In this document: in pieces, positions 8,055 through 29,011 of the stretch
Layout of the letters: the number at the start of each line of letters is the position of its first letter
Numbering within the stretch: the first letter of the stretch is position 1
IMG/VR virus record: IMGVR_UViG_2558860259_000003
Reading direction: 5' to 3' (one strand)
Length of the DNA stretch: 64,000 nucleotides
DNA from: an uncultured virus (IMG/VR IMGVR_UViG_2558860259_000003)
Lineage: Duplodnaviria; Heunggongvirae; Uroviricota; Caudoviricetes
Program-made: the position numbers and the translations under genes
The notes under the pieces: generated by a model
What the model was told of the DNA's origin: nothing
The model's database searches: none
What the model saw: only the letters and a program-made list of their open reading frames with translations

Positions 8055-8861
8055 TTAGTCGTCGTAATGGGGGTAGGTCATTTCGTAAGCGTCTGGAATT
8101 TGATCCATCACTAAGAAACTGCCGCCGTAGTAAAGAGCTGCGATCAACTTATCGAAGTGGCTATATGCCTTACTGAGCTTCTTACCCAGTACACCACCAT
8201 CAACATGACCGTGATAAAGATCGTAAACAGGGTGACCTTCGTGGGTAATGGGCTGTTCAGTACGGCCTACACGATCTTTTTTAGGGGAAAAAGCAAGATA
8301 AACGTCGCAGCGATGTGCGCTTTCGACTTTGGAGCGGTAGCCATCTTCCGATGCCGCATGAAGGCCAACGGAAAAATAACCATCGACACAGTCACTATCG
8401 TTATACATAACCTGAGGGCGCTCCCATTGCTCTTCGGCAGCAAGCTCACTGTTTTCCTCAATGAATGCCCTCCACAAATCGGAGGCCATGATGAATTTGG
8501 GAATTGCTTCGTCGGTGGTGAATTCTTTCACCAGATCCAGAACGCGTTGTTGCATATCGCTCTGAATACCGGAGTTGGCCCATTGTTCGCGTACTGAGTT
8601 GATAACCAGTGAGTTATAGCCAGCCAAATCGACAACTTCAGAAATGTTGGTAGGCAGTGCAGCTTTAAACGCTTCATTCAGCAATTTGCCGAAATCGCCA
8701 TATGATCGGAATGCATCACTCACCAGGTCTTTGAACATCTTTTCAATGCCTTGATCGATGATTTCGACGGCCTTATCGCTGGTAGAGAAATTCACGCAAC
8801 GCTGAGTAAGTAGGGCGGAGAGGGTTAATTCTGGCTGTTGGTTATTATTTTGGTCGGTCAT
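8055..8861 (-). CDS. Phage hypothetical protein
   Basis: 268-aa ORF; start embedded in the AGGACTGACCAATGA motif. Confidence 0.75.
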   Translation of the reverse strand: MTDQNNNQQPELTLSALLTQRCVNFSTSDKAVEIIDQGIEKMFKDLVSDAFRSYGDFGKLLNEAFKAALPTNISEVVDLAGYNSLVINSVREQWANSGIQSDMQQRVLDLVKEFTTDEAIPKFIMASDLWRAFIEENSELAAEEQWERPQVMYNDSDCVDGYFSVGLHAASEDGYRSKVESAHRCDVYLAFSPKKDRVGRTEQPITHEGHPVYDLYHGHVDGGVLGKKLSKAYSHFDKLIAALYYGGSFLVMDQIPDAYEMTYPHYDD

Positions 8862-8887
8862 TGGTCAGTCCTTATTGCAGTTTGGTT

Positions 8888-9310
8888 TCAGATTTCCCGC
8901 AGCAGGCGGCTAAAGATTTCCTGATTGGACGGGATCCGCAGTTGGTGGGCCAGCATCCAGGCTTTACGCTGCGTTTGGGTTTTGTGCTCCAGCATTTTTC
9001 GGATGTCGGTTACTGGGATACCGGTATCGCTGGCAATGGTCTGCTCGCTGTGGCCAGCTCGGTGAAACTGGTAAACACACAGCATGATGTTGGATGAATA
9101 GCGCTGCCGGCTGCCGACATTTACCGAATCAACGCGACGCTTGGCTGGTGGCTTGCCGGTACCGGTATAAATCGGCTTCGGCATTGGCCTGTAGGGTTCA
9201 CCGGAGCGGATCGACGCGCGGGTACGCATCGTGTAGATAATTGGCTTGATGTGGCAGCAAAAATCATCTTCCGGCTTGTACGGCTTACCGTAAATCAGTT
9301 CATCGTCCAT
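8888..9310 (-). CDS. Phage protein with possible C-terminal HTH
   Basis: AGHSEQTIASDTGIPVTDIRKML resembles an HTH. Confidence 0.55.
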   Translation of the reverse strand: MDDELIYGKPYKPEDDFCCHIKPIIYTMRTRASIRSGEPYRPMPKPIYTGTGKPPAKRRVDSVNVGSRQRYSSNIMLCVYQFHRAGHSEQTIASDTGIPVTDIRKMLEHKTQTQRKAWMLAHQLRIPSNQEIFSRLLREI

Positions 9311-9311
9311 A

Positions 9312-10466
9312 TCAGGCCGCCTTTTGTTTCTGTTCTGTTTCCCAATCCTTCACCACGTTCATGCATGCGGCATGCACCTGGCGCGCGGTGGCAATGCCGA
9401 AGCCTTTTACTGTGCTGGAGAGTTCTTCAGGGGTGAGGCTAACGACGCCGTAAAGCGAGTGCATGCCGGAGGCATTCAGCAGATCGAGCCATTGCGGTTT
9501 CAACTGCGTCAGGCTACCCAGTGGCGTACTCTCGGCCCATTCAGTGCGCCGGACTAAATGGGGATGGCTACGCTCCAGCAGCTCGTTAATTTTCACGCTG
9601 ATGGCGGAACCTAATTCCTCTGGCCATGCCTGTTTGAACAGATCCAGCGTTGGGTACCGCGGTCGGCACCATTCGGTTACCGAGACAATCACGCCGATCC
9701 CGGTATTTGTGCGAACCTCAATGTGCCAATCAATGTCTTGCAGGATCTGCAGTTGCACATCACGGTCATCGGAACCAAACGATAAGCGCCAGCCGAACGT
9801 ATAAAAGTAAAAATGGATGCCGCTGCCGTCGGCTGCCCGGTACCAGATCGGATCTACGTCACCATCGATGTTCTGCAACCGCGATTGCAGTTCGATAACG
9901 GTATCTTCCAGCACTGAGTTTCGGTGCGCGGCCTGCGCCAGTGATGTTTTGGCATCAGCAGCTTCACTGCGTGCGATACGCATTTCTTTTTTCTGCTGGT
10001 TGAGCAACTGCACTTTGAATTTGAGATCGTCTTTCAGTCTGACGATCTGCTTTTTCATGTCCTCCGGGTTAAGTGACTTCAGGCGGTTTAACTCTTCAGC
10101 CAGTATTCTGTTATCGCTGGATAGCTGCTTGATCCGGGCGCGGCTGATCTCGGTGTTGGCATTGGCCTCTTTGGCGACAACGGTCTGTTCCTCAAGCTGT
10201 TCCTGCAAGTTGGTGATCAGCAGTTTGGTGGTAGTGATTTCCGACTCCAGCGCCTGGCAGCGGTCAACAACAGTATTGAACTCATCAACCTCAGTGTTGT
10301 ACTGCTCAATACAGAGTCCCTGAGCTTGGTCGAGAAGGGCGGTAGCACTCTCAACCGAGCGCTGCGCAGTCCCTGTGGTTTGTTCAATGGCAAGATCGAG
10401 TTGCGCCCGAACGGGGCGCAGGGATAATTCCAACACGCTGGCAACGGTTGAGGGGGTGGTACTCAT
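9312..10466 (-). CDS. Coiled-coil protein with C-terminal helix-hairpin-helix-like domain
   Basis: AGGAG RBS before MSTTPST; long heptad region; LNASGMHSL..TPEELSSTVKGFGIATA resembles HhH. Confidence 0.65.
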   Translation of the reverse strand: MSTTPSTVASVLELSLRPVRAQLDLAIEQTTGTAQRSVESATALLDQAQGLCIEQYNTEVDEFNTVVDRCQALESEITTTKLLITNLQEQLEEQTVVAKEANANTEISRARIKQLSSDNRILAEELNRLKSLNPEDMKKQIVRLKDDLKFKVQLLNQQKKEMRIARSEAADAKTSLAQAAHRNSVLEDTVIELQSRLQNIDGDVDPIWYRAADGSGIHFYFYTFGWRLSFGSDDRDVQLQILQDIDWHIEVRTNTGIGVIVSVTEWCRPRYPTLDLFKQAWPEELGSAISVKINELLERSHPHLVRRTEWAESTPLGSLTQLKPQWLDLLNASGMHSLYGVVSLTPEELSSTVKGFGIATARQVHAACMNVVKDWETEQKQKAA

Positions 10467-10506
10467 AGGAACTCCTTCTACGTACCTACTGGTGCAGGCA
10501 GAGGGG

Positions 10507-12093
10507 TTAAACGTTGGCTGTAATGTGGCGGATGCGACCGGCAATGATTGCCGGGATCAGTTTTTCCAAAGCGGTAGCGCTGATTTTGATACCTTCGGCG
10601 GCAAGGTCGGCTTTTACATCGTTAATGACTTCCTTGATGCTCAAGGTTTTTTCATTCACTACCGGTGGAGTTAGCGTAGAACCGCCCAACTGTTTGGGGT
10701 AACTGAAGGTGTCAGGCGAATGCAACGGTTGATGCTGTTCCGGGGCGGCAACTTTGGGCTGTTCAGTCACATGTTGTTCCGCCGCCAGACGCTCTTTTTC
10801 TTTACGCTCTTCCTCCAACTTTTTCTGTTCACCGATCCGCTGGCCGATCAGCAATTTCAGGTGCTCGTGATCATTGCCAATGATCTGGCTGATGTCGGCA
10901 AACAGGTTTTTGTAGGCCGGTTCGATATCATCAAACAGCTTCAGGTTTGCTTGATACCTCTCACAAAGCTGGTTTGCTTCAATCTTGGCCCGCGCCAGTT
11001 CATCGTTGGCTGAGCCTTGCAGCGAGGTAACTGTTTTCTTGCCCTTAATTGCAGCGGCAAAATCAGCAGCAATTGCAGGAAGCCGCACGCTTCCCAACTG
11101 AACGTTAAGCGCGCTGATATGCTCATTCAGTGCAGTTTTTGCCTTGCTGATAATGTCAGCGCGTATCTCATCCTTGCGAGACTGCACAAGCCTGGTTAAA
11201 TCCAGGCGTTTCCTGCGCATCGCTTCACGTAACGTGTCGATAGTGCGAAAGAGGGTATCAATCTGCTCTGTCTGGGATAATGCCTGCTTCTTGATCAGGT
11301 CGAGTTCACTTTCTGCCTTCTCACAGAACTTCACCGTTTCTTCCGCATCGGCAAAGTCCTGATCAGTTGAGAGGTTGGTATTGATGGACTCAATAAACGC
11401 CAACGCTTGCCCCTGGTATACAGTCAAGTTTGACTGTTTAACCACACCCTCAATTTCCACCATCAGCGCTGGCAGGCGCATGATGCCTTTTGCTGCAGGC
11501 AGTTCTTTGATATCGGGTAGCGTGTAATTTTCCAGATCCTGTGCGAACTGGCTCCATCCGGAAATCAGCGATTCCACTCGACCAGCAACCGGCGTGTATT
11601 CCATCCAGACGAAGTTTTCTTCGGTACCATCTGAGCAGACAAAAATGACACGCCGCGCCCTGCTGACCAGTAACTGCTGTTCAAGTTGCCAGTAATACTC
11701 TGGCGAGAGGTCTTTCTGACGAACAGCTTCCGCCAGCGCAGCGCTCCACATTTTGTGCTCAAAGAGCGTATCTTCAGCCATGGTCATGCCATCGAACGAC
11801 GCCAGCATGTGGCCGGTGTCATCAATAGCAGTAGTAGGGTAGAGGTCATCACCGATCATGCTCTCTACGATAGTACGCGCCATGGACTCTTGCTTGTGGC
11901 CTTTATCGAACAGGTTGGTTTGAACCCAATCGCTGATTTCGCGCTCAGTGCCGATTGCCCTCATCTTGAGCAGGTCGTCACGGCGCATTTTGCTGGAAGC
12001 CGCCATCATGACCGGTGCTTCGCTGGCGGTGAAATGTTTGGCACGTACAGCGTGCCACTCAGGGGTTCCCTGTTGGACATTAATGATTTGCAT
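10507..12093 (-). CDS. YqaJ-like (lambda-exonuclease family) nuclease with long helical C-terminus
   Basis: QGTPEWHAVR..TASEA, LASFDG, FEHK, YYWQLEQQL. Confidence 0.88.
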   Translation of the reverse strand: MQIINVQQGTPEWHAVRAKHFTASEAPVMMAASSKMRRDDLLKMRAIGTEREISDWVQTNLFDKGHKQESMARTIVESMIGDDLYPTTAIDDTGHMLASFDGMTMAEDTLFEHKMWSAALAEAVRQKDLSPEYYWQLEQQLLVSRARRVIFVCSDGTEENFVWMEYTPVAGRVESLISGWSQFAQDLENYTLPDIKELPAAKGIMRLPALMVEIEGVVKQSNLTVYQGQALAFIESINTNLSTDQDFADAEETVKFCEKAESELDLIKKQALSQTEQIDTLFRTIDTLREAMRRKRLDLTRLVQSRKDEIRADIISKAKTALNEHISALNVQLGSVRLPAIAADFAAAIKGKKTVTSLQGSANDELARAKIEANQLCERYQANLKLFDDIEPAYKNLFADISQIIGNDHEHLKLLIGQRIGEQKKLEEERKEKERLAAEQHVTEQPKVAAPEQHQPLHSPDTFSYPKQLGGSTLTPPVVNEKTLSIKEVINDVKADLAAEGIKISATALEKLIPAIIAGRIRHITANV

Positions 12094-12914
12094 CGATAGG
12101 CTCCAATTTGCGGATAATTTCTTTCTGTTCTTCGGAGAGGGTAAACTTGGTGCTGACGGTGGCGATCACTGCTTCGGCTTTTTTGCTGCCAGATGCGATC
12201 ATCTTTTCCCAGCCTTCCAGGTTTGTGTTGAATTTGTCACTTGGGTAATGTGGCGGCGTCAGCGGCGTCTGGGTTTCCTTGGGGGGTGTAACATCCCTGA
12301 CGTCGCTGATATCCAGCGATTTACCTTCCATTTCTTCAGCTGTAGGCTGCTGCCCGACCTCAGGCCAGGCTTTGCGCAATGCCTGAGCTTCTGCGCATTT
12401 CGCTAATTGTCCGTAGGGGCGTTTTCTCCACATCGCGTTAGGTGCCTGGGTGTTTTTTTCCAGCTGTGGCATAGTTTTCTAGCCAGTATTCCTTCGCGTG
12501 ATACTCAGAAATTGAACCGTCAGGCCGTTCTTTTAGTACGGTGTACTGACACCACTCAGGGAAGGTGATTTCTACCTCTCCAAGCGTTTTGGTCACATCA
12601 GGCCCAAACTCAGGCTCTTTATCCCCTGCATGGTTGCCAGAACGGTCTGCTTGAATACGATACAAGCCGATACCTGGCATGACGACATCACGCATTTCAT
12701 AGCTGTTCGTGAGAGCATCCTTAACGCTCATGGGTACCAGGTGAACGGGCTTCATCAGCGGATCCAGTTGACGCGCCTTGCAGTAACTCACGGCCATAAC
12801 AACGGAATCATCGCGAGCGCCGGGGTAGATGCTGTTTTTCAACGCGTTCCAGGTAGGCTCATCAATGCCCATGGAAATGATGGCAGCCGGTAGGGTTGCA
12901 ACTGCATTACTCAT
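12080..12914 (-). pseudogene. bet: Bet/RecT-family ssDNA-annealing recombinase split by +1 frameshift
   Basis: N-half (YCKARQLDPLMKPVHLV, GIGLYRIQA) and C-half (MWRKRPYGQLAKCAEAQALRKAWPE) join if one base of T7 (12453-12459) is removed; span 835 = 3n+1. Confidence 0.85.
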
Positions 12915-13069
12915 TGGTCAGTCCTCAAAGAGTTACGGATAGCGAAACAAGCAACGCCGAAAGCAATGGCGCAGGTTTTGAGTGGATGGCGGCGGCGCTT
13001 GAACTGGTGAATATTGTGGCTGCCGATCCGGTGCAGATACTGGATATGTTGGACGGTGTGAGTAGGCAT
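12911..13069 (-). CDS. Small hypothetical protein
   Basis: GAGGAG RBS before MPTHTVQ; ends RTDQ* overlapping the bet start. Confidence 0.45.
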   Translation of the reverse strand: MPTHTVQHIQYLHRIGSHNIHQFKRRRHPLKTCAIAFGVACFAIRNSLRTDQ

Positions 13070-13213
13070 GATATTCTCCTCAGAGATCGGGGGTGGTTCC
13101 CCGGTCAACTTGCTTATGGCCTTTATTGGTCATTGGCCAGTCCTTAAAGATTCGCGGTTTGGTCGCCGCGTATCGGGATAGCCCCGCTTGCGGGGCTTTT
13201 CTCGTTTATGGGG

Positions 13214-13546
13214 TTAGTGAATTTCGTGCGGTTCTGGATCACGTGCGGCATCCAGCTCCATGGCGCGTTCTGCTTTGGCGATGCGGGTGAGGATTTCGGT
13301 TTTGACCGACTGCAGGTATTCCTCCACATCGGGTGTTTCCATAAGTGCCATGAGATAGCGATTGTCCAGGCCGGGTGTTGAGCAGTGCTTGATGATCAGG
13401 TTTTTGAGGGCAGAAATGCGCAAGTCTTTGCGCCGATTCTCCACACGATCGGCAAGCAATTCCCGCTCGTCAGGATCCGCAGGCAAGGTGCGCTCATACT
13501 CCTCAGTAATTTCCTCAACCATCCGCTGATAGTTGTACTCGTTCAT
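13214..13546 (-). CDS. Phage hypothetical protein
   Basis: GGAGG RBS, MNEYNYQ start; followed by hairpin GCCCCGCTTGCGGGGC. Confidence 0.65.
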   Translation of the reverse strand: MNEYNYQRMVEEITEEYERTLPADPDERELLADRVENRRKDLRISALKNLIIKHCSTPGLDNRYLMALMETPDVEEYLQSVKTEILTRIAKAERAMELDAARDPEPHEIH

Positions 13547-13610
13547 ACATACCTCCAATCAGTGAACTTGCTCATGCGCCAGCAGGCTGACGCATGGTGA
13601 AAGCACGCTG

Positions 13611-13874
13611 TTACTCTTCGGTTTTTTCCTCATTGATGCGCTGGAACGGGAAGCGCTCAGTGTCGGCTTTGAAGCATCTGCCGAAGTGAGAGCCGATCGA
13701 TTCCGCACCTTTGAACGCAGCAAAATCATCAGCGGTGACGTTCTGGTAGTGGTACAGCGCAGCCGGTTCGCCGCGCTGCTTAAAGCGAATTGCCAGGGTG
13801 TTGGTAGCCGCGTCGTGGCCGATGCTGTGGATCTGGGAAGAGTTAACAGCTTCCATAGCGATATTTACGGTCAT
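13611..13874 (-). CDS. KTSC domain protein
   Basis: VNSSQIHSIGHD..TLAIRF..LYHYQNV..AESIGSHF. Confidence 0.85.
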   Translation of the reverse strand: MTVNIAMEAVNSSQIHSIGHDAATNTLAIRFKQRGEPAALYHYQNVTADDFAAFKGAESIGSHFGRCFKADTERFPFQRINEEKTEE

Positions 13875-13951
13875 GGTGTTTTCCTTTCTGTTGGTTTTTG
13901 GATAAAAAAAAGCCCCGATGAACGGGGCAATGAGGGCGGGGCAGGGCTTTC

Positions 13952-14149
13952 TTATCTTCGCAGTGAAGCGTCTTGTTCTCTCACTTTTCGCATGAAGTCG
14001 CTATTTTCATCGGGCGGGGTCAGTTGCTGACCATTACCCAGATAGTCGGGATTCATGTACTGCTCGTGATAGATAAAAGACGCTTCGTGGCAGTTGCTAC
14101 AGCGGCCTGAGTACACCTTGCAGCCACAATCTTCACAGTATTTGCTCAT
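13952..14149 (-). CDS. Small zinc-finger protein
   Basis: CEDC..CSNC; AAGGTG RBS. Confidence 0.6.
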   Translation of the reverse strand: MSKYCEDCGCKVYSGRCSNCHEASFIYHEQYMNPDYLGNGQQLTPPDENSDFMRKVREQDASLRR

Positions 14150-14157
14150 AGGTCACC

Positions 14158-14436
14158 TTATGGAGTTGGCTCCCGTAACTTTTTCACGTAATTCATGCAG
14201 TACGTTGGGCTGCACTCTTTCCAAGCGGTCTTATGCTGCATTTTTTTGCTTGGCGGGTAATAAACCACAGTTCCTTGTGGGGTACGGAAAATAAGGGTGT
14301 TGTTGCCCTCTTCGAACTCAATGCCGTTCTTCTTGAAAAAGGCGCTAATCCTTTCATAAGCACCATTTCTGGCCCGGCGTCGGCCTTCTTTCCGGAATTC
14401 TTTGATATCGCGAAAATAATCGCCTACATCTCCCAT
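14158..14436 (-). CDS. Phage hypothetical protein
   Basis: 92-aa ORF, GGAG RBS. Confidence 0.6.
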   Translation of the reverse strand: MGDVGDYFRDIKEFRKEGRRRARNGAYERISAFFKKNGIEFEEGNNTLIFRTPQGTVVYYPPSKKMQHKTAWKECSPTYCMNYVKKLREPTP

Positions 14437-14439
14437 AAG

Positions 14440-14535
14440 TCAGTACTCCGTTTTAGTTGCGATACATAGAGCGAGTGTTACGATTGCAACACAGCAACCA
14501 ACGACCGCGCCGCATGCAAATCCGGCTATGAACAT
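14440..14535 (-). CDS. 31-aa hydrophobic peptide (absent from ORF track)
   Basis: AAGGAGG RBS; MFIAGFACGAVVGCCVAIVTLALCIATKTEY fills the intergenic gap. Confidence 0.5.
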   Translation of the reverse strand: MFIAGFACGAVVGCCVAIVTLALCIATKTEY

Positions 14536-14544
14536 ACAGCCTCC

Positions 14545-15297
14545 TTAATTGGGTATCACCACAATCACGGTGTTCACCATTGTGCCGGATGGCTTGAAAG
14601 AGCCCTCCGGTAGTTCTTCAATCCAGCCGCCTTTGCTCTTAACCGTTTCGCGGAAATCCTCAGTCAGTTTGTTGCTACGGAACGTGACCGACGAGGACAT
14701 GACAGAAACTAACTTGCCGCCAGGCTTGAGGAACTTCATGGCGTGGTTTACATGCTTGATATCCGCCTGGCGGCTGAACGGCGGGTTCATGACTACACGG
14801 TCATAAATAGGGTTTGGTACCACGGTTAGGAAATCGACAGGGCCTGCAATTCCACTAAGCGAGATGTTTAAAGTATGTAAATAGCCGTTATTTGCTGGCA
14901 TCAGTTCGTACATATCGATAATGACGTTGGCTGCGGCAGCTTTGGCGGCAAGAGCAAGAGCACCACGCCCGGCACTTGGTTCAAGCACCCTCATTCCGTC
15001 TTGAATGTCAGCGAAGTGAATGACGTGGCGGGTCACGTTATCCGGGGTGGGGAAGAACTCGAAATCATCCTTTGGCACCACAACATCACCAGTCAGAATG
15101 ATCTGCTCGATCCGCTCTGCTGCTTCGGCCTCAAAAATATGCGCTTGGGCCTTGCGGTTCCACTTTCCGCCAGCGGCTTCCAGTACCTTGTTGGTTCTGG
15201 TGTAAAGGGAGCGATCAAGCTGCCCGGTAAGTTTCAGTTGATTACCGATGCACTCAGCGGCGCTAAGCACATTTAAAACCTCGTTATCTACTCGCAT
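14545..15297 (-). CDS. SAM-dependent amino-methyltransferase (probable N6-adenine DNA MTase)
   Basis: FFPTP, VLEPSAGRG (motif I), VMNPPF (motif IV). Confidence 0.85.
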   Translation of the reverse strand: MRVDNEVLNVLSAAECIGNQLKLTGQLDRSLYTRTNKVLEAAGGKWNRKAQAHIFEAEAAERIEQIILTGDVVVPKDDFEFFPTPDNVTRHVIHFADIQDGMRVLEPSAGRGALALAAKAAAANVIIDMYELMPANNGYLHTLNISLSGIAGPVDFLTVVPNPIYDRVVMNPPFSRQADIKHVNHAMKFLKPGGKLVSVMSSSVTFRSNKLTEDFRETVKSKGGWIEELPEGSFKPSGTMVNTVIVVIPN

Positions 15298-15314
15298 TCA
15301 GCATTCTCCAGACA

Positions 15315-15340
15315 TAAAAAAAGCCCCGCAAGGCGAGGCT
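15315..15340 (-). terminator. Intrinsic terminator in leftward operon
   Basis: AGCCTCGCCTTGCGGGGCT followed by T-run on the minus strand. Confidence 0.65.
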
Positions 15341-15483
15341 GTGATGGTTTAATCGGCTGCGCACTGGTTCAGGTTGTCGTCTGATTTTTGACCTCGCCAA
15401 AAACGGGCGAGCTCAAATCTTCAACTAGTAAACGAGGTGCATTGCTTACCAATGCGCACAAGATTAAGGCTCAGAAGGATGGC

Positions 15484-16323
15484 TTATGCAGATAATTCCT
15501 TGAGCTTTGCCGCTACTTTTTCAAGGGTGCTCATGCAATCCATCATTTCATCGAATTTTCGCTGAATCGCACCTACTGCTTGTAATACCTCCAATTTCAC
15601 AGGAGCAAGTTTTTTATTGAACAAGTCGCTTTCACTGGCCTGCTTTTCAGCTTTCTCTGCAGCTTTCAGTAACTCTTCGGCTTGCTTACGGAGTAACTCT
15701 GGTGTTGCTTTTATCTCCTGAGCCATAACTTGCTCCTTTGGCTTGGTATCATTGGGGGATGGTTGGTTGTTAAGTGCTATTTTTGGTAATGGACATAGCG
15801 GAAATTCGTACCCAGGAATGGTCTTTGGGTACCCGAAGCGTTTGTGTCGAAGCATTATTATTGGGTGTTTTGCTGAAAGTGGACGACATTCAAGCATTAA
15901 GATGCTTTCTCTCGCTTGAAGGAAGTCCATGAGGGCATATTGCTCTTTTCGGTTGAGAGCCTTATAAGCCTCAACCTTGCTTTTTACATCCGCTAAAATC
16001 ACCCCGTCAGGGAACTTCTCTACGAAACTCTTAACTTCTGATGCTGCCCGCCATAACTTATTAGGCAGTGTTGATGGCGTCATCTCTACCTCACTATCTA
16101 TCGGTTGCTGCTCTAGGTAAAAGCCTCGCTCTGAGAGGTTTTTATTGTTTTGTGATACCCAACGATCAATATCCTCGGCGATCCAGGCTACATAGCGGGG
16201 TCCAATTTTTACCGGCTCAGGGAATTTACCCAAACCTATCATTCGATAAATCCAAGCTTTTTTATAACCAGTAATTTCGAGAACCTCTAAAAGTCTGATT
16301 AACTTCTGTTTTTTCTCTTCCAT
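15484..16323 (-). CDS. AlpA-family regulator fused to a larger unknown C-terminal region
   Basis: LIRLLEVLEITGYKKAWIYRMI..GKFPEPVKIGPRYVAW. Confidence 0.75.
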   Translation of the reverse strand: MEEKKQKLIRLLEVLEITGYKKAWIYRMIGLGKFPEPVKIGPRYVAWIAEDIDRWVSQNNKNLSERGFYLEQQPIDSEVEMTPSTLPNKLWRAASEVKSFVEKFPDGVILADVKSKVEAYKALNRKEQYALMDFLQARESILMLECRPLSAKHPIIMLRHKRFGYPKTIPGYEFPLCPLPKIALNNQPSPNDTKPKEQVMAQEIKATPELLRKQAEELLKAAEKAEKQASESDLFNKKLAPVKLEVLQAVGAIQRKFDEMMDCMSTLEKVAAKLKELSA

Positions 16324-16362
16324 CCTCGATCTCGATTAGCGTCATGCGCTAAAAATTAGACG

Positions 16363-16392
16363 AAAAAAAAGCCACAGCGTCAGCTGCGGCTT
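16363..16392 (-). terminator. Intrinsic terminator after the N-like gene (tL1 position)
   Basis: AAGCCGCAGCTGACGCTGTGGC followed by T8 on the minus strand. Confidence 0.7.
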
Positions 16393-16416
16393 CTTGGTGT
16401 TCAGTTGGGAGGGGGC

Positions 16417-16680
16417 TTAGATTATGCCGCGCGGTATCCGGCTGCATCCGCGCATTTTCTGGCGGGCCGCAGCGCTGAGTTGCCCCGGTGCCAGTAATTC
16501 ATCTTCTTTCACAGCACGCTTGCGCGGTTTCGGCGGTGCTGGCATGTCCGGCATCGCTTTACAGCGGGTGAGCACTAGAATGGATTTTTCAATGCGTTCG
16601 CTGCTGAGCTTGATGCGTTCCAGTTGCTCCTGGGCGCGGCGGCGTTTTGCCGATTTTGCTTTGGCTTTAATCATTGTCAT
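16417..16680 (-). CDS. Probable N-like early antiterminator
   Basis: Arg/Lys-rich N-terminus KAKAKSAKRRRAQE, basic 87 aa, downstream of pL/boxA and upstream of a terminator. Confidence 0.55.
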   Translation of the reverse strand: MTMIKAKAKSAKRRRAQEQLERIKLSSERIEKSILVLTRCKAMPDMPAPPKPRKRAVKEDELLAPGQLSAAARQKMRGCSRIPRGII

Positions 16681-16922
16681 TGGTCAGTCCTTAACTGTTT
16701 AAAGGCTTGGTCAGAGCCCATTGGGTAGATATGGTTTAGATAAACGGAAATGTTTTTCTTGGGTAAAACAGTCTCACCCAGATGCTTGATCACCGAATCT
16801 TTATCTGACTCACTGATCCCCATAGATTTTATGCTTGCCTTGATTAGGGCAATGTGTTGATTCAGCGTATCCATGCGACGAGCATTGTCGCTATAAATCA
16901 ATTGACAAAGGTGTCTTTGCAT
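16677..16922 (-). CDS. Hypothetical protein, first convincing ORF of the pL transcript
   Basis: AAGGA RBS; ends RTDQ* coupled to the N-like gene. Confidence 0.5.
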   Translation of the reverse strand: MQRHLCQLIYSDNARRMDTLNQHIALIKASIKSMGISESDKDSVIKHLGETVLPKKNISVYLNHIYPMGSDQAFKQLRTDQ

Positions 16923-17673: not shown

Positions 17674-17693
17674 GTCCCAGATGGGATGCTTTG

Positions 17694-19473: not shown

Positions 19474-19492
19474 CAGTAACAAGGACTGACCA

Positions 19493-21092: not shown

Positions 21093-21579
21093 GCAGTTAA
21101 ACCATGCCATCCGTGCGGCGCCAGGGCGAAAGTTTTATCCGTTCCCAGCACCACCAGACTGGTTGGCAATGGCGAAAGAACTTATCGATGCTCGGCTACC
21201 AACGGTCGATGCGGTGATGGCAGAGTTTGAAGGTTACAGCGCCAGGCGGTCAGACTACGCCAGCCCTGAAGAGTACGAATGGCAATTGCCGGTGATGTAC
21301 TGGATTGTAACCGACATGCGCGAGGCGATGCTGCAGTACAACCACGGTACTGCCGAGTTGCGGAAAGTGGCCGATCGGCTGTTGCGGCAATGGGAAAAGA
21401 AACTACATAACGGGGAGGCGATACCTGAACCAGTGATGAGGATCGGATACACAGAAACACCGAAAGACGCTGGAAACGAGCGGGGATTGACCACCCTCGA
21501 ATCAGAAAAAAAAGGCGCTGAATTCCTGCTGAAAATCCGGCAACGAGTCGCGCAAAGCAAAGTAAGGACTGACCAATGA
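20821..21579 (+). CDS. Replication protein P-like helicase loader
   Basis: [32 protein letters not shown] as in lambda P-like proteins; follows the initiator. Confidence 0.7.
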
Positions 21580-22715
21580 TTAATTTCAAAAACGCACTGA
21601 TTTACCGCCTGTCTGGCGGTATTGATCTCAGTAAGTTGGAAGAGCAACTGGCCGTGTTCGCATTCACGCCATGCGGTAGCCAGGATATGGCGAAAGCCGG
21701 TTGGATTCCGCCACTGGGGGAGGTGCTGACGCATACCGCTAACGGGATGACACTGCTGGTGGTACAGCGGGAAGAGAAGATCTTGCCCGCCGCCGTAATC
21801 AAGAAAGAGCTGGACGGCAAAGTCGCCAAACTGGAAGCCGAACAACATCGTAGACTGAAAAAAACTGAGAAGGACTCACTGAAAGACGAGGTGATCCAAA
21901 CACTGATACCGCGTGCCTTCAGTCGGTACCATAAAACACAAATCTGGATTAACGAAGGGGCTGGGTTAATCATCGTTGACACCGCCAGCGCCAAACGTGC
22001 CGAAGATGCGTTGGCATTCCTGCGTAAAACCCTGGGCTCACTGCCTGTGGTACCGCTGGCAATGGAAAGCCCCGTCGAGATGACGCTGACCAATTGGGTA
22101 CGTTCCAGCCATGCTCCTACCTGGTTCAAACTGCAGGATGAGGCGGAACTGAAAGCCGTGCTGGAAGAGGGCGGGATCATTCGTTGCAAACACCAGGATC
22201 TGTGTGGCGATGAGATAGGCATGAATATTAGAGCCGGGAAGCTGGTCACTAAGCTGGCGCTGGAATGGCGCGAGCGGATCAGCTTTGTGCTGACCGATTC
22301 ATGCAGCCTGAAAAAGCTGGAATTCAGCAGCCAGTTACTCGATCAAAACGATGATATCGACCGTGATGATTATGCCGCGCGGTTTGATGCTGACTTTGTG
22401 CTGATGACTGGGGAACTGGCGGCGCTGATCGCATACTTGATCGAGGTACTTGGCGGTGAGATGGAGCATGGTACCGATGCGAAAGAAACTGTTGTTGATA
22501 GTGCCGATGATACCGAGCAGGACGATCTCTATCCTAAGGCGGTTGAGTTTGTTCAGCGGGTAGGGCGCGCCTCCATTTCAGGTGTACAGCGTGAGTTCCG
22601 TATCGGCTACAACCGGGCCGCCCGCATCATTGAGCAAATGGAATATGGCGGCGTTGTCTCCGCTCCTGCCCATGATGGTAGCCGCACAGTTCTGAGCGGC
22701 GGAGGTGCTCAATGA
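21576..22715 (+). CDS. rdgC: RdgC recombination-associated protein with C-terminal FtsK-gamma domain
   Basis: [31 protein letters not shown]-terminal [36 protein letters not shown]. Confidence 0.92.
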
Positions 22716-22957
22716 TCCAGAAGCATCCAGTCACAGAGCAAGAACGGCAATGTATCAACGACGGGATCCACAAACTGCGGCAGGTCGGTAAGTTCGACGG
22801 GGCCAACACGCAAGCGGCAATCAGCGCGCGGCTGCGTGAAGTGTCTGCTGTCCGTCATGGCGTACTCAAGCAGGTCTGCACTGTGCACCACGAAGAAACC
22901 GGGAAAACGACCTGGTTCTATCGGCTGGTGCCTTCTCAGGCGGAGGTGCGGGCATGA
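22712..22957 (+). CDS. Small hypothetical (wHTH-like) protein
   Basis: Coupled ORF with [20 protein letters not shown]. Confidence 0.55.
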
Positions 22958-24348
22958 TCTATCAACTCAATGTTGGTCGCTGCGAGGAAGTGCTACGTGG
23001 TATGGCTGAAAATTCCGTTGATGCCATTGTGACCGATCCGCCGTATGGCTTGAGCTTCATGGGTAAAAAATGGGATTACCAGGTACCAACTGTTGACCAG
23101 TGGGCCGAGTGCCTTCGCGTCTTAAAGCCGGGTGGCCACTTGTTGGCGTTCGGCGGATCACGCACCTATCACCGGCTCGTCGTTAATGTTGAGGATGCTG
23201 GCTTTGAAATCCGGGATCAACTGATGTGGATTTACGGCAGCGGCTTCCCTAAGTCGAAAAACCTTACTGACGAGCATGCTGGGAAAGGTACCGCGTTGAA
23301 ACCTGCGCATGAGCCGATCGTCATGGCCCGAAAGCCACTCATCGGAACCGTAGAGGGGAATGTTTCCCAATTCGGCACTGGTGCCCTGAATATCGATTTG
23401 TGTCGTATACCGACAGGGGAAGCGCTAACTGGCGGTGCTGGTGGCTTGCTTTCCCATGCTCGTGACGGAAAAGCGTCTGACGCTGAGGAATGGCAGCCCG
23501 CTCAACTAGGCCGCTGGCCAGCAAACGTTATGCATGATGGAAGTGAGGAAGTTGTTTCCGAGTTTCCACGAAATGCAGGAGCACAAGCGCCTGTCCGTGG
23601 TACTGAACCCACGCATAACGGGTTCAGTGGCGCGGTTAAATTTGGCGGAATGATTAATCGTATTGCCAGCCATCATCACGGCGACCAGGGCAGCGCAGCC
23701 CGGTTTTTTTACTGTGCAAAGGTCAGCCGTAAAGAGCGCGACGAAGGTATGGAACGCTTTGTCCCTACCTCTGCAAGCGAAATGACCGGGGGCCGAAAAG
23801 AAGGTAGTGCTGGGCTCAATAACCCGCGTGCTGGTGCAGGACGTACCGGGGGAGTCAAAAACAACCATGAAACTGTGAAGCCAGTCGATCTCATGCGCTA
23901 TCTGTGCCGCCTCGTGACACCAGCAGGCGGCGTGGTACTGGATCCATTCATGGGTTCCGGCAGCACGGGTAAAGCGGCGCTGCTCGATGGATTTGGGTTT
24001 ATTGGGATCGAGGAAAACCCGGATCACCTGGTCACCTCAGCAGCACGGATTGGGTATTCGTTGAAAGTGCTCAGTGAATCCCCTGAACCTGATGAGGTTC
24101 ATCAGCTTGTAGAACAACAAACTGAACCACAAATTATTCCTGAAAATATTCCAGACACAACAAATACCGTTTGGCCTCAAGAGGTTCATTTCCTTTTTGA
24201 CCAGGTAAAAGGTGCCAGCGAATTGCCCGTAAACCTGCAACAGAAACTGCGGTTCCACATCAACCGCTTGAAACTCGAATCACAGCCTGAAGCTGCCATC
24301 ATCGAAGCAGCCACAACACTGGCCACAGCAATGGGAGCAACAGCATGA
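22954..24348 (+). CDS. DNA N4/N6 methyltransferase (beta class)
   Basis: VTDPPY near the N-terminus; HETVKP and VLDPFMGSGSTG near the C-terminus. Confidence 0.92.
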   Translation: MIYQLNVGRCEEVLRGMAENSVDAIVTDPPYGLSFMGKKWDYQVPTVDQWAECLRVLKPGGHLLAFGGSRTYHRLVVNVEDAGFEIRDQLMWIYGSGFPKSKNLTDEHAGKGTALKPAHEPIVMARKPLIGTVEGNVSQFGTGALNIDLCRIPTGEALTGGAGGLLSHARDGKASDAEEWQPAQLGRWPANVMHDGSEEVVSEFPRNAGAQAPVRGTEPTHNGFSGAVKFGGMINRIASHHHGDQGSAARFFYCAKVSRKERDEGMERFVPTSASEMTGGRKEGSAGLNNPRAGAGRTGGVKNNHETVKPVDLMRYLCRLVTPAGGVVLDPFMGSGSTGKAALLDGFGFIGIEENPDHLVTSAARIGYSLKVLSESPEPDEVHQLVEQQTEPQIIPENIPDTTNTVWPQEVHFLFDQVKGASELPVNLQQKLRFHINRLKLESQPEAAIIEAATTLATAMGATA

Positions 24349-26327
24349 AGCGCGAGATTATTGTCGATAACTTTGCTGGTGGCGGCGGTGCGAGTACCGG
24401 GATCGAGATGGCGATTGGTCGTAGTGTGGACATTGCCATCAACCACGACGAGCACGCGATCGCGATGCACGAGACGAATCACCCGGACACATTGCATTAT
24501 TGCGAGTCGGTTTTTGACATTGATCCTGAGGTGGCTACCGCCGGGCAGCCAGTGGGCCTGGCGTGGTTTAGCCCTGATTGTCGGCATTTTTCCAAGGCCA
24601 AAGGCAGCAAGCCAGTCAAAAAGGAGATCCGAGGACTTGCCTGGATCGTCATTTGCTGGGCTCTGAAAGTCCGACCGCGTGTGATGATGCTGGAAAACGT
24701 CGAAGAGTTTAAAACCTGGGGGCCGTTGATTGCTGACGCCGAAGGCAATGAACGCCCATGTCCGGCGCGCAGCGGGGAAACATTCGCTGCTTTCGTGGGG
24801 ATGCTGACCAGTGGCGTTGAGGTAGATCACCCTGCGTTGGTTGAATGCTGTGAAGTGCTGGGGATCGGCGCTGGTAGCGATGAGCAGCGCCGCCTGATTG
24901 CCGGGCTGGGGTATGACTTAGACTATCGTGAACTTCGTGCTTGCGACTACGGCGCCCCAACAATTCGCAAAAGGTTCTTCATGGTCATGCGCTGTGATCA
25001 ACAGGCTATCGTCTGGCCGGAACAAACGCACGGCGACCCGAAATCGCTGGATGTGCAGAGTGGTCACCGTAAGCCATGGCGTACAGCTGCTGAATGCATT
25101 GATTGGTCAATTCCGTGCCCGAGTATCTTCGAGCGTAAGCGACCGCTTGCTGAAAATACGATGAAGCGCATTGCGCGGGGGATTGAACGGTTTGTTATCA
25201 ATAGCCCGACGCCATTTATCGTTAAGTGCAATCACACCAGCACTAAGACGACATACGACTGTTTTCGCGGGCAGCCGTTGGACGAACCTTTGCAGACGAT
25301 CACCAAGACCCATGGCTATGCCCTGGTATCACCGCATATCACTAAATTCCGTACCGGGGCCACCGGCCAGGAATGTGATGAGCCGATCTCAACCATAACG
25401 GCGGGCAGTTCCGAACGGCCAGGTGGTAACGGTCATGCTCTGGGCATGGTAGAGGCAACATTAGCACCGTTCATTGCCGGTGCTGGTGGCCCGAAATATT
25501 CAGCTAAGCCGCGGTCTGCTGAGCAACCAATGCATACGTTGTGTATCACAAACCATGCCTGTCTTGTTGCGCCCGTTATTGCACGTATCGGGCAGACAGG
25601 CTTTGGTGGCGATCGCATGGCCTATGAAGCCGGTAAGCCACTGACTACTGTCACAACGAAAGCCGAGCACTTGGTTGTGGCTCCTGTGATAGCGCGTCAG
25701 TTTGGCAATAGCGTCGGGCATGCAGTCGGTGAGCCAAACGGCACAATCACTGCTGGCGGTGGTGGTAAAAGCCAACTGGTATCGGCGTTCCTGGCAAAAC
25801 ATTTCGGTGGCAATTATACCGGCCCCGGCGCGGATCTGGCGGAACCTGCCCACACAGTGACGACTGTCGATCACCATGCTCTGGTTACGTCCAATCTCAT
25901 CAAGATGCGCGGTACCAATACCGGGCAAGAGGTTACCGATCCACTCCAAACCGTTACTGCCGGCGGAAATCACTTCGGTGAGGTGAGAGCGTTTCTGCTG
26001 AAATATTACGGCACAAACATCGGCCACCCTGCTGATGATCCGTTGCAGACAGTCACCACCAAGCATCGTTTTGGCTTGGTTACGGTTGAAGGCATCGATT
26101 ACCAGATAGTTGATATCGGTATGCGCATGCTGCAACCGCATGAACTCTATGCCGCGCAAGGCTTCCCAAGTTGGTACGTGATTGACCAAAACTACCGAGG
26201 AGAAAAGTACGCCAAAGACAAACAAGTGGCCCGCTGCGGCAACGCCGTACCGCCACCATTCGCCGAGGCGTTAGTACGCGCAAATCTGCCAGAAATGTGC
26301 AAAGCGCGCGAGGAGGTGGCCGCATGA
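24345..26327 (+). CDS. DNA cytosine-C5 methyltransferase
   Basis: DNFAGGGG, FSPDCRHFS, LENVEEF, GAPTIRKR, RCGNAVPP. Confidence 0.92.
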   Translation: MKREIIVDNFAGGGGASTGIEMAIGRSVDIAINHDEHAIAMHETNHPDTLHYCESVFDIDPEVATAGQPVGLAWFSPDCRHFSKAKGSKPVKKEIRGLAWIVICWALKVRPRVMMLENVEEFKTWGPLIADAEGNERPCPARSGETFAAFVGMLTSGVEVDHPALVECCEVLGIGAGSDEQRRLIAGLGYDLDYRELRACDYGAPTIRKRFFMVMRCDQQAIVWPEQTHGDPKSLDVQSGHRKPWRTAAECIDWSIPCPSIFERKRPLAENTMKRIARGIERFVINSPTPFIVKCNHTSTKTTYDCFRGQPLDEPLQTITKTHGYALVSPHITKFRTGATGQECDEPISTITAGSSERPGGNGHALGMVEATLAPFIAGAGGPKYSAKPRSAEQPMHTLCITNHACLVAPVIARIGQTGFGGDRMAYEAGKPLTTVTTKAEHLVVAPVIARQFGNSVGHAVGEPNGTITAGGGGKSQLVSAFLAKHFGGNYTGPGADLAEPAHTVTTVDHHALVTSNLIKMRGTNTGQEVTDPLQTVTAGGNHFGEVRAFLLKYYGTNIGHPADDPLQTVTTKHRFGLVTVEGIDYQIVDIGMRMLQPHELYAAQGFPSWYVIDQNYRGEKYAKDKQVARCGNAVPPPFAEALVRANLPEMCKAREEVAA

Positions 26328-26995
26328 CAGCCGCGCCGCGAACTAAGTCCCTGCGTAAACAGAAAACCGAAGCGCTTGGTGTTCTGCTGCCGGGCGGCGG
26401 CATCAAGTACGCGACTGATCATGATAGAAATGTAATGAAGGGGATGCCGGTAGGCACCCCCATCTCAATGAGTCCGATCGGTGATCGTAGGAATCTAAAA
26501 CACCACCGCAAGTTCTGGAAGCTTATAGAACTGGGCATGGATTATTGGGAGCCGGAATGGGCATTTGTCAGCGATTCAGAAAGATGGATCGCAATAGAGG
26601 CAGCAAATAAAACTGCAAAAATGATGGCGGAAATGGCTGGCGATCCGTCCCTGTATGAAAACGTCACAAAGCAGATAGCTGACAGGAGCGCAGAAGAAAC
26701 ACTTAACAGGATGGCTACCAGGCGAAAATCACGCTTTGATGCTGAGTTAATAAAAACCGAAGAAGCATACCTGAACCGCGTGATGATCAAGGCTGGCTTC
26801 TATGACCTGATCCCTAATCCTGATGGCGGCACGCTGAAACAACGTTGGAGCATCGCGTTTGCCAACATGGATCAGGGCAAGTTTGACGCAGTTTACCGAG
26901 GCGTAGCCGGTGTCATCTGGAACGAAACCCTGCAGCAGCATTTTGCCGACGAGCACGAGATGGAACAGGCAGTAAACCGGCTGATGGAATATTGA
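26324..26995 (+). CDS. DUF1367-family protein
   Basis: RNLKHHRKFWKL, SIAFANMDQGKF; nin-region position. Confidence 0.75.
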   Translation: MTAAPRTKSLRKQKTEALGVLLPGGGIKYATDHDRNVMKGMPVGTPISMSPIGDRRNLKHHRKFWKLIELGMDYWEPEWAFVSDSERWIAIEAANKTAKMMAEMAGDPSLYENVTKQIADRSAEETLNRMATRRKSRFDAELIKTEEAYLNRVMIKAGFYDLIPNPDGGTLKQRWSIAFANMDQGKFDAVYRGVAGVIWNETLQQHFADEHEMEQAVNRLMEY

Positions 26996-27005
26996 GGACT
27001 GACCA

Positions 27006-27431
27006 ATGACCGACCAAACCAATGACGAAGGCCAGATCGACAACATTCTGGCGTTTACCAAGCGGTTCGACAGTAATGCCGACATCCGCGAAATGAGGAA
27101 CTTTGTAGAGGATAAGCCTAAGGATGGCCGCCGCTGCCGTCACGACAAAGTATTGGTTTCAGAGCACGAACGTAAAGTGACGTGCCGCGTTTGCGGTGCC
27201 GTGTTGGAGGCGTTCGATCACCTGCTGGCGCTGGCTAAGGGGGAGACAAAGATTGAATGGGAACTTAAAACCCTGCGTATGGAGATCACTGCGCACAGGG
27301 AAGGGCTGGAGAAGCTGAAACGTGAAGAGGTGAACACAAGAGCACGGATCAAAACTGCTCAGTTCAAGCTAAACGACCTGAATATGGCGATCGACGCCGC
27401 AGAAAAGGTGAAGGCAGGCAAGAATGGCTAA
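27006..27431 (+). CDS. Hypothetical zinc-ribbon/coiled-coil protein
   Basis: CRH..CRVCG; start within the shared 15-mer. Confidence 0.7.
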   Translation: MTDQTNDEGQIDNILAFTKRFDSNADIREMRNFVEDKPKDGRRCRHDKVLVSEHERKVTCRVCGAVLEAFDHLLALAKGETKIEWELKTLRMEITAHREGLEKLKREEVNTRARIKTAQFKLNDLNMAIDAAEKVKAGKNG

Positions 27432-27756
27432 ATCACCCGCTTACCGCAGCAAGATTCTGTGCGATTCAGCGCGTGGCCGCTGCTGCACGCTACTGATCCC
27501 CGGCATCTGCAACGGTAACCCGGAAACGACGGTGCTGTGCCACCTGCCGAGCATTACCCATGGCATGAGTTACAAAAGCGATGATTACTTTGCAGTGTTC
27601 GGTTGCTCGAGCTGCCATGACGTTATTGATGGCCGGGTGCCGTATGACTGGCGGCCAGGCGAAAAGGAGGAAACCTATCTGCAGGCGCTGCATGCCACTT
27701 ACCGGCAATGGCTGGAAGATGACGTGATGATGGTCAAAGGAGGGCGCTTTGCTTAA
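27424..27756 (+). CDS. DUF1364-family putative nuclease
   Basis: SARGRCCTLLIPGICNGNPETTVLCH..GCSSCHDVIDGR. Confidence 0.85.
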   Translation: MAKSPAYRSKILCDSARGRCCTLLIPGICNGNPETTVLCHLPSITHGMSYKSDDYFAVFGCSSCHDVIDGRVPYDWRPGEKEETYLQALHATYRQWLEDDVMMVKGGRFA

Positions 27757-28192
27757 TAGCATTGATGCCATCGGCTACGTAGGCACAAAAGCCAAGCTGG
27801 AGGTGCGCGGTGGCAAGGTTAAGAAGATCAGGCACGAGCCGGAGCTGGAAGAGCAGGCCGCGCTGATCAAGTGGGCAGATAAAACCGTTATAGATGGTAT
27901 CAAGATCGGTGAATACCTGATCCACATTCCCAACGAAGGAAGGCGCGGGCCTAAGGCTGCCAGGGATGCAAAACGGCTGGGGTTACGCGCAGGAGTATCA
28001 GATTTGTTCTTGGCATTGCCGCGAGGGGGCTATGCCGGACTTTGGTTAGAGATGAAGGCGATCGATGGGAAGCCAACAGCAGAACAGGTGTCATGGCTGA
28101 ACAAGATGATAGGTTCAGGCTACGCAGCCATTCTGTGCTATGGTTTCGTCCAAGCAAAAGAGCGAATTATGGCTTATGTGAATCAGGACTGA
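27749..28192 (+). CDS. VRR-NUC domain nuclease
   Basis: HIPNEG..GLRAGVSDL..LWLEMKA..GKPTAEQ. Confidence 0.85.
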   Translation: MLNSIDAIGYVGTKAKLEVRGGKVKKIRHEPELEEQAALIKWADKTVIDGIKIGEYLIHIPNEGRRGPKAARDAKRLGLRAGVSDLFLALPRGGYAGLWLEMKAIDGKPTAEQVSWLNKMIGSGYAAILCYGFVQAKERIMAYVNQD

Positions 28193-28195
28193 CCA

Positions 28196-29011
28196 ATGAC
28201 CAATGCAATAGAACAACTCATAAAAATGCACGATCCGCGCTGTGTAAGTGCGGAGGCAATGAACATAGGCCGTGGTCGTGCCTCCTTGACCAGGGAGCAA
28301 ATCCTCGGTGCTTTCGCAGCTGCTCAGCACCAGCATTCGCTGGGCCTTGATATTCTGATGGCTAAATACCGCAGCGATTGCTTGGCAGAACAGCGCGTAC
28401 GGATGGCGATTAACGTATGGGTACACCAGCGACCACACCCGGCACGCGCAGCGGCTGCATGTCAGTTGGCCCTCAGTATCGTGCTAGAGCGCAATGTGCC
28501 TGCGCAGATTGCACATATTGCATCGTTACTGCGACGGTACGGGCCACGGACAGCGCAAACCCGAAAGAAGATTGAAACCCTACAGACGCAGATCAAGTAT
28601 CTGGAGAAGCAGCGTAGCAAAACCAGCATCAGCGATAACACATATCATGAGATCGGTTTTGACATTATTGATATTAACCGCAGCATTGAGCGTGAGCGCA
28701 TATCACTGCGGGCGTGGTCAGAACAGCATGCCACGACAACCAACCTTTGCCCGCGCTGTTCCGGCACTGGCAGAATCGCCAAGCCACACCCAGCAGAATG
28801 TGAAGAGTGCAACGGCAAGGGGAAAATACCGGCCAACATGGAGCACCTGCGTAAATCGATGCGTATCATAGGGGCTGAGGTAGCGCCTGGTGACTGGGCT
28901 GGTAAATATGCCGGTTTGGTTAAGAGGTGCATGGATTGGTTGTATATTGAGGAATCGAATGCGACATTAATTTTGTCTGAACGACTTCAAAATGAGAGAC
29001 AGGCGTTCTAA
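28196..29011 (+). CDS. Probable Q-like late antiterminator with zinc finger
   Basis: Last nin-region gene before lysis; CPRCSGTG..CEECNGKG finger; start within the shared 15-mer. Confidence 0.7.
   Translation: MTNAIEQLIKMHDPRCVSAEAMNIGRGRASLTREQILGAFAAAQHQHSLGLDILMAKYRSDCLAEQRVRMAINVWVHQRPHPARAAAACQLALSIVLERNVPAQIAHIASLLRRYGPRTAQTRKKIETLQTQIKYLEKQRSKTSISDNTYHEIGFDIIDINRSIERERISLRAWSEQHATTTNLCPRCSGTGRIAKPHPAECEECNGKGKIPANMEHLRKSMRIIGAEVAPGDWAGKYAGLVKRCMDWLYIEESNATLILSERLQNERQAF

What the first reader, a model, noticed from the sequence alone, without database searches (positions are those of the whole stretch)
8858..28199. Identical 15-mer AGGACTGACCAATGA at the start of seven dispersed early genes on both strands
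Seen: perfect copies of the 14-nt core ending in ATG, each followed by A, at 8859-8872(-), 12912-12925(-), 16678-16691(-), 19482-19495(+), 21565-21578(+), 26995-27008(+) and 28185-28198(+). A 1-mismatch copy at 13131-13144(-) precedes a 17-codon ORF. Each supplies AGGA plus ATG; I saw none at late/structural gene starts. Three upstream ORFs end in RTDQ* because the motif also provides their stop codon. Two copies extend to 24 identical nt (AGGACTGACCAATGACCGACCAAA). SD spacers are normally unconstrained, so this identity implies selection. Inference: a common translational operator (RNA- or protein-bound), or a linker for modular gene exchange.
Basis: seen in the sequence. Interest (0 to 1): 0.8.

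Follow-up and report, generated by a model that had tools for sequence, protein, structure and literature searches.

The report
Late-leader RNA complementing tagged phage starts
A dormant virus in this bacterium puts the same short tag on the ribosome-binding sites of eight early genes and carries the tag's complement in the short RNA at the front of its late operon, so that RNA probably silences those genes together by base pairing, though no experiment shows this yet.

Summary
Observation confirmed: 7 exact and 1 one-mismatch copies at early-gene starts of a 59-kb lambdoid prophage; no exact copy elsewhere in the nearest genome held. It lies on the coding strand between two terminator hairpins just behind a lambda-pR'-like promoter. 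That 85-nt leader pairs 14 bp across Shine-Dalgarno and AUG of all eight genes, including Q. A seed-like leader is present in 58 of 77 Q-homolog regions. Tag fidelity follows seed integrity: 160/161 starts within one mismatch with an intact seed, 1/6 with a degenerate seed, 5/22 without. One lineage shows a matching seed/tag change. Best reading (0.68): late-leader antisense RNA blocking translation of a tagged early regulon, probably Q-boosted feedback. Main rival (0.14): DNA sites for the conserved 119-aa protein at 19493. No expression data; the wobble test on targets was null. The scan noted the same system in another genome (e1-5965918). Added here: cluster K mycobacteriophage SAS tags, of unknown function, also have an antisense copy in a late-leader loop (intact in 5 of 11 leaders), a partial parallel.

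The parts
8858..8872 (-). Tag (SD+spacer+ATG+A) on gene 8055-8861 (phrog_2600, unknown function)
12911..12925 (-). Tag on RecT-family annealing gene 12438-12914 (frame shifts near 12440-12470)
13130..13144 (-). Tag with one A>G change (G-U with the seed) on a 17-codon ORF
16677..16691 (-). Tag on gene 16417-16680 (87 aa, Arg-rich N-terminus, followed by a terminator-like hairpin; N-like by position only, BLASTP to lambda N not significant)
19482..19496 (+). Tag on gene 19493-19852 (119 aa, cII position, strand-helix-helix core, weakly RHH-like; candidate binder in the rival model)
21565..21579 (+). Tag on RdgC/FtsK-gamma gene 21576-22715
26995..27009 (+). Tag on gene 27006-27431 (phrog_1621, unknown function)
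28185..28199 (+). Tag on Q-like antiterminator gene 28196-29011
   Evidence: phrog_127, E 1.3e-13
29443..29471 (+). pR'-like late promoter, TTGATT-17-TAAATT (lambda: TTGACT-17-TAAATT); in relatives the -35 TTG start and the -10 box are conserved while spacer and upstream DNA vary
   Evidence: below the threshold of the consensus scan
29478..29562 (+). Predicted 85-nt late leader RNA: hairpin 1 + U6, seed, hairpin 2 + U6; fold z -5.6
29482..29515 (+). Terminator-like hairpin 1 and U-tract; 209 of 209 cells paired over 19 variants, 2 pairs with double changes (both in the window's own row)
29514..29527 (+). Seed, complementary to GGACUGACCAAUGA (14 bp, one G-U)
29529..29560 (+). Terminator-like hairpin 2 and U-tract, before the holin start at 29587
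36372..36515 (+). Second late promoter and two-hairpin leader; partial second seed at 36453-36467 (GGUCA twice)
51503..51598 (+). Third late promoter and two-hairpin leader without seed (internal control)
555..59783 (.). Prophage, from attL in SdsR/RyeB (~555-583) to attR (~59754-59783); 933W-like head genes

Best explanation
The tag is the shared target of a phage antisense RNA. The late promoter makes a leader whose seed, set between two terminator hairpins, pairs over the Shine-Dalgarno, spacer and AUG of eight early mRNAs and blocks ribosome loading. Shown: the complementarity, its position and strand, and its conservation. Inferred: transcription, pairing in vivo and repression. The seed begins in the U-tract of terminator 1, so it is made only on read-through. 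That gives a low level in the lysogen (85-nt RNA ending at terminator 2, damping leaky early expression) and much more once Q antiterminates. Most likely circuit: Q raises the seed, the seed shuts off Q and other early genes (about 60:40 over a mainly lysogenic role; my estimate).
For: Of 680 ATG contexts in the window, the top 8 rows for seed pairing are the 7 long tagged starts (one listed twice), at -24.0 to -24.5 kcal/mol against -17.0 for the next. Cofolding with the whole leader gives -15.8 to -22.5 for 8 targets and -0.8 to -8.5 for 6 controls. Promoter, hairpins and seed are present in 43 of 46 Q-homolog loci, with named relatives in Serratia, Yersinia, Pectobacterium and Brenneria. 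58 of 77 regions have a seed-like leader. Census of 268 near-matches: 208 sense at SD+ATG, 54 antisense in leaders, 6 other. Orthologous starts within 1 mismatch of the core: 160 of 161 with intact seed, 7 of 7 with the C>U seed, 1 of 6 with degenerate seed, 5 of 22 without seed. The putative recognition strand of the rival protein is unchanged in all 12 regions checked, across these classes. G103 keeps the seed although hairpin 1 is replaced; its seed has C>U and 3 of 6 listed tags have the matching G>A, against 6 of 173 sites in intact-seed regions. Both hairpins have U-tracts on the plus strand only. Precedent: StxS, made from pR'-tR', represses stx1B at its RBS (PMC7547250, passages).
Against: No RNA evidence. 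Wobble test on targets null: 9 wobble-keeping to 3 breaking transitions, the same as the 6:2 expected. The G>A tag also occurs under the unchanged seed in 5 regions. Covariation rests on one lineage, and kin are not independent. A DNA-binding model also predicts that leader copy and tags change together. Edwardsiella-type regions lack the seed but keep a one-mismatch tag on the 119-aa gene. Four regions have a tagged Q and no leader in the DNA held: L178, L308, L480, L484; only L484 is simply cut short. Leader 1 does not explain ACC as second codon (95 of 130 distinct starts against 15 of 256 controls) or extra sense TGACC upstream (11 of 62 against 1.6 shuffled). Part of the seed is predicted in a 3-bp hairpin, and in tandem-seed relatives seed 1 is folded away. 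In cluster K phages the tag persists where the antisense loop is degenerate or absent.
Confidence: 0.68

Rival explanations
1. DNA-level sites (stoperator- or CII-like) for the phage's own 119-aa protein (19493-19852), a probable ribbon-helix-helix factor that binds TGACC-containing heptads at early gene starts and in the late leader, blocking elongation or driving antisense transcription.
For: The protein is 61-82% conserved in motif-bearing lineages and not found in the 3 motif-less distant elements. IKTRWTE is invariant in 23 homologs; the model shows strand-helix-helix; nearest named Atlas clusters are RHH at 0.90 (a lead only); a distant homolog hits NikA-like at E 0.053, below cutoff. 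TGACC-N2-TGACC is exact at 4 tags. The one Edwardsiella-type tag is on this gene.
Against: Sites occur almost only as sense-at-SD or antisense-in-leader (262 of 268). None near int/xis or in the pL/pR regions. Tag number falls from 6-8 to 3 to 1 per region while the strand sequence stays the same (regions differ in length). TGACC spacing in leaders is 5, 6 or 10, not 7. CI cannot be the binder: 26-86% identity under an unchanged tag, and the likely operators are a different palindrome.
Confidence: 0.14
2. Protein-bound translational operator: a phage or host RNA-binding protein recognises repeated UGACC(A) around the start codon.
For: Strand-specific extra TGACC upstream (11 of 62 sense, 2 of 62 antisense) and ACC at codon 2 give several UGACC per site.
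Against: Does not explain the conserved antisense copy: the minus strand of the leader has no terminator-like U-tract, and the only minus-strand promoter-like site nearby is at chance level. No candidate RNA-binding protein was identified.
Confidence: 0.09
3. Recombination linker: the 14-mer is microhomology for module exchange.
For: Block ends at the 28185 copy (11 of 11 relatives) and the 26995 copy (9 of 11). The regions before 16678 and 19482 share a further short similarity, which suggests copying as the way tags spread.
Against: Ends coincide with gene ends; 19482 and 21565 mostly lie inside blocks; many ends lack the motif. No reason for an inverted copy fixed in a late leader, or for tag decay with seed decay.
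Confidence: 0.06
4. Merely a strong or translationally coupled initiation site.
For: Three tags supply an ATGA stop-start overlap.
Against: Spacer identity on unrelated genes; no late start has the tag; no host start in G001 has it; an exact 12-nt complement in an 85-nt leader has a chance of about 4e-6.
Confidence: 0.03

Closest known systems
StxS (Stx-phage pR'-tR' sRNA) and lambda 6S RNA
   Same: Short RNA from the antitermination-controlled late promoter behind Q; StxS represses stx1B at its RBS (PMC7547250, passages). Promoter hexamers match lambda pR'.
   Different: StxS acts on host rpoS and a toxin mRNA and is not needed for phage propagation. Lambda 6S has no assigned role, and its longest complement to 23 lambda gene starts is 9 nt. 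Here 8 phage genes, Q among them, carry one tag, and the seed lies behind a first terminator.
C4 antisense RNA of phages P1/P7
   Same: Phage RNA that partly occludes ribosome-binding sites by pairing (as described in PMC5320573, passages).
   Different: No Rfam C4 match; two hairpins with a linker seed, not three stem-loops; made from a late promoter; dispersed targets on both early arms.
Start Associated Sequences (SAS) of cluster K mycobacteriophages
   Same: Asymmetric 13-mer over the RBS of 11-19 non-structural genes, function unknown, with one opposite-orientation copy in K1 phages (PMC3203893, passages). In Adephagia that copy lies at 58682-58694 in the 92-93 gap where late transcription starts (PMC11373665, passages), in a hairpin loop on the late strand.
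   Different: Unrelated sequence and host phylum; SAS stops short of the start codon; the loop is intact in only 5 of 11 leaders, degenerate in 3, absent in 3, while SAS is unchanged in the 4 non-intact cases checked and in TM4.
Cluster A mycobacteriophage stoperators
   Same: Asymmetric repeats oriented with transcription (PMC4351075, one passage).
   Different: Repressor-bound DNA sites (recalled); here the repressor varies under a fixed tag, and the tag is fixed in register on the SD.

Membership tests
pR'-tR' late-leader sRNA (StxS / lambda 6S kind) | pR'-like promoter downstream of Q, before lysis genes | tested here: met
pR'-tR' late-leader sRNA (StxS / lambda 6S kind) | Intrinsic terminator closing a short transcript | tested here: met
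   Two hairpins with U6, by sequence and folding only
pR'-tR' late-leader sRNA (StxS / lambda 6S kind) | Accumulates as a stable RNA in lysogens; Hfq-bound, RNase E-processed | not testable with these tools
   needs RNA data
pR'-tR' late-leader sRNA (StxS / lambda 6S kind) | Sequence homology to StxS or lambda 6S | not tested
   No direct alignment made; no Rfam match over the leader; no BLAST hit over the seed among annotated phages
C4 antisense RNA | Match to the Rfam C4 model | tested here: not met
   only SraC/RyeA and SdsR/RyeB reach gathering score in the window
C4 antisense RNA | Three stem-loops with a' and b' loops | tested here: not met
   two hairpins and a linker seed
C4 antisense RNA | RBS occlusion by pairing | tested here: inconclusive
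   predicted only
Cluster K SAS | SAS consensus sequence | tested here: not met
   different sequence
Cluster K SAS | Asymmetric repeat over the RBS of non-structural genes, one copy in opposite orientation | tested here: met
   works-like only
Cluster K SAS | Extended SAS inverted repeats upstream of about half of the sites | not tested
   none seen by eye in 40-nt flanks
Stoperator | Bound by the immunity repressor, changes with immunity type | tested here: not met
   CI 26-86% identical under an unchanged tag
Ribbon-helix-helix protein (gene 19493-19852) | Strand-helix-helix fold matching solved RHH proteins | tested here: inconclusive
   secondary structure fits (pTM 0.37); weak profile leads

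The most novel reading that the evidence does not exclude
Unrelated temperate phages have converged on one design: give a whole early regulon a private RBS tag and put its complement in the late-promoter leader, so that the onset of late transcription switches early translation off. This would explain this tag and, in part, the SAS repeats of cluster K mycobacteriophages, open since 2011.
Probability: 0.25. Interest if true: 0.9.

Novelty: new variant of a known kind. Interest (0 to 1): 0.74.

Why it matters
Known phage antisense RNAs named here control one or two phage messages, and the known late-leader RNAs act on host genes or have no assigned role. Here the targets seem to have converged on one seed, which would add an RNA feedback loop on Q and on the early-to-late switch to the lambdoid circuit in prophages of several enterobacterial genera. 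One reporter experiment with compensatory mutations decides it, and the same test applies to cluster K SAS.

Tried and rejected
No RNA holder listed for 27400-30400, so no reads were laid; this is no evidence either way. The promoter/terminator scan missed the promoter and both hairpins. BLASTN of the leader against annotated phages gave only short terminator-type hits; the 87-aa protein had no match there, and BLASTP to lambda N gave E 5.1, so 'N-like' is positional. No further copy of the G103-type leader, and its genus holds one genome. Wobble asymmetry among tag variants: null. Seedless leaders with the same hairpins (G128:C13, G332) show no tagged set of starts; they lie upstream of a distant Q, so they are scaffold controls, not orthologs. 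Fold searches for the 119-aa protein gave nothing clear; RHH is neither shown nor excluded. Dimer formation was not tested. CI as binder rejected. The first estimate of upstream TGACC enrichment (18 of 75) was inflated by the cro 3' end; redone without most such sites, 11 of 62. Covariation of the bases flanking GGAC with the seed's 3' extension was looked at by eye only and is not claimed. Paper searches that found no description of this tag or leader: (open-licence library only).
Full report
Setting. The window holds a prophage from about 555 to 59783, inserted in SdsR/RyeB, with lambdoid early arms, a Q-like gene, a lysis cassette and 933W-like head genes (terminase 73% to 933W). Named relatives come from Serratia, Yersinia, Pectobacterium, Brenneria and Edwardsiella.

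Observation. Of 53 probable starts that I tabulated, only the 8 carry the tag. In G001 all 7 exact copies are in the prophage and the 3 one-mismatch copies outside lie within reading frames. In 301 genomes of the family, 6 have an exact 15-mer. Tagged genes: the Q-like gene, RdgC, RecT, the gene in the cII position, an 87-aa Arg-rich gene in an N-like position (inferred, not significant), two unknown genes and a 17-codon ORF.

The missed copy. The ninth match is on the opposite strand. On the plus strand it reads as the complement of the tag and lies between two hairpins with U-tracts, 43 nt behind a promoter whose hexamers match lambda pR'. The 85-nt leader folds at z -5.6 and is not in Rfam. 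Its seed pairs 14 bp over SD, spacer and AUG. Among 680 ATG contexts the tagged starts rank on top by 7 kcal/mol, and whole-leader cofolding separates 8 targets from 6 controls. Two paralogous late leaders exist, at 36372 and 51503. The third has no seed.

Relatives. Promoter, hairpins and seed are kept in 43 of 46 viral loci with a Q homolog, while the DNA just upstream of the -35 box changes freely. For counts I pooled 90 regions (the window, loci, and 10 longer regions) and dropped 13 duplicates, leaving 77; most reach only 10 kb on each side of Q. Of these, 58 have a seed-like leader: 53 intact (28 with a tandem second seed), 2 with C>U, 3 degenerate. Of 19 without, 12 are Edwardsiella-type, 3 have distant Q genes and 4 have a tagged Q but no leader in the DNA held. 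Orthologous starts lie within one mismatch of the core in 160 of 161, 7 of 7, 1 of 6 and 5 of 22 cases for intact, C>U, degenerate and seedless regions, and in 6 of 6 for the 4 leaderless ones. Of 268 near-matches, 208 are sense at SD+ATG, 54 antisense in leaders and 6 other. G103 keeps the seed under a different first hairpin, and its C>U goes with G>A in 3 of 6 listed tags (4 of 7 by the pattern) against 6 of 173 in intact-seed regions. It is one lineage. An RNA model found the leader scaffold in 6 of 151 family genomes, one hit being weak and one (G036) a remnant with seed but no tags nearby.

Results against. Tag variants show no excess of wobble-keeping changes (9:3, expected 6:2). The G>A tag occurs under an unchanged seed in 5 regions. 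ACC at codon 2 (95 of 130) and extra sense TGACC upstream (11 of 62) are not explained by leader 1. The 119-aa protein tracks the tag across lineages and may be an RHH factor, though fold searches were blank; its putative recognition strand stays fixed while tags dwindle, which favours the seed. No expression data could be had.

Mechanism. Shown: complementarity, placement, conservation, joint decay. Inferred: the seed is transcribed only past terminator 1, at a low level in the lysogen and strongly with Q, and it blocks 30S loading on tagged mRNAs, giving negative feedback on Q and shut-off of early genes. A seed with many targets cannot change easily, which would explain the scarce covariation.

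Known systems. It works like StxS in origin and like C4 in action but is a member of neither by the tests run. The lone reversed SAS of Adephagia lies in a hairpin loop of the late leader. In 11 cluster K leaders, chosen along a BLAST ranking of 186 records, the loop is intact in 5, degenerate in 3 and absent in 3; SAS is unchanged in PhelpsODU, Amgine, Yuna, Pixie and TM4. So the parallel is partial and SAS must have another or an added role. Papers: I saw passages only of PMC3203893, PMC7547250, PMC11373665, PMC4351075, PMC5320573 and 10.1101/2024.10.31.621285; no supplements were read, and the lambda 6S target table of the preprint could bear on the comparison. Ten searches found no description of this tag or leader. 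I formed the antisense reading before seeing note e1-5965918, which reports the same system in another genome; it and three notes on other phages are unchecked leads, not support.

Verdict. Real feature; probable late-leader antisense RNA with a tagged early regulon (0.68); new variant of a known kind; interest 0.74.

Noticed in passing
window 36372-36515 and 51503-51598: The phage has three paralogous late promoters, each followed by two terminator-like hairpins, instead of a single pR'; relatives show the same.
   Followed up: partly
window 12080-12914: RecT-family gene is split by a frameshift near an A-run at about 12440-12470; real or a sequence error is not known.
   Followed up: no
window 59754-60239: attR is followed by a second, partial copy of the integrase 3' end, then tail-fibre and IS remnants: an older prophage at the same site.
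   Followed up: partly
window 16922-17640: About 700-nt leader without long ORF behind pL, with a boxA-like site near 17662-17673 and several possible hairpins (boxA consensus recalled).
   Followed up: no
window 29054-29446: Low-GC 130-aa gene with no family match between Q and the late promoter; relatives carry different inserts there.
   Followed up: no
window 29563-29589: Hairpin that covers the holin Shine-Dalgarno, conserved in many relatives.
   Followed up: no
window 3488-4387, 14545-15297, 22954-26327, 51633-59078: Four DNA methyltransferase-like genes and a 2481-aa late protein with a methyltransferase-family match in its C-terminal third.
   Followed up: no
G103 region (L467+L468, 26151-26748): A second repeated RBS in front of four short tandem ORFs spaced about 200 nt apart.
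   Followed up: no
L148, L157, L178, L179, L513: A tag followed by ATA rather than ATG in several relatives: lost start or ATA initiation.
   Followed up: no
L485:29682-29694 (Adephagia 58682-58694): Lone reversed SAS lies in a hairpin loop of the late leader.
   Followed up: partly
L499:6733 (Yuna): A two-mismatch SAS on the minus strand just before the leftward repressor gene.
   Followed up: no
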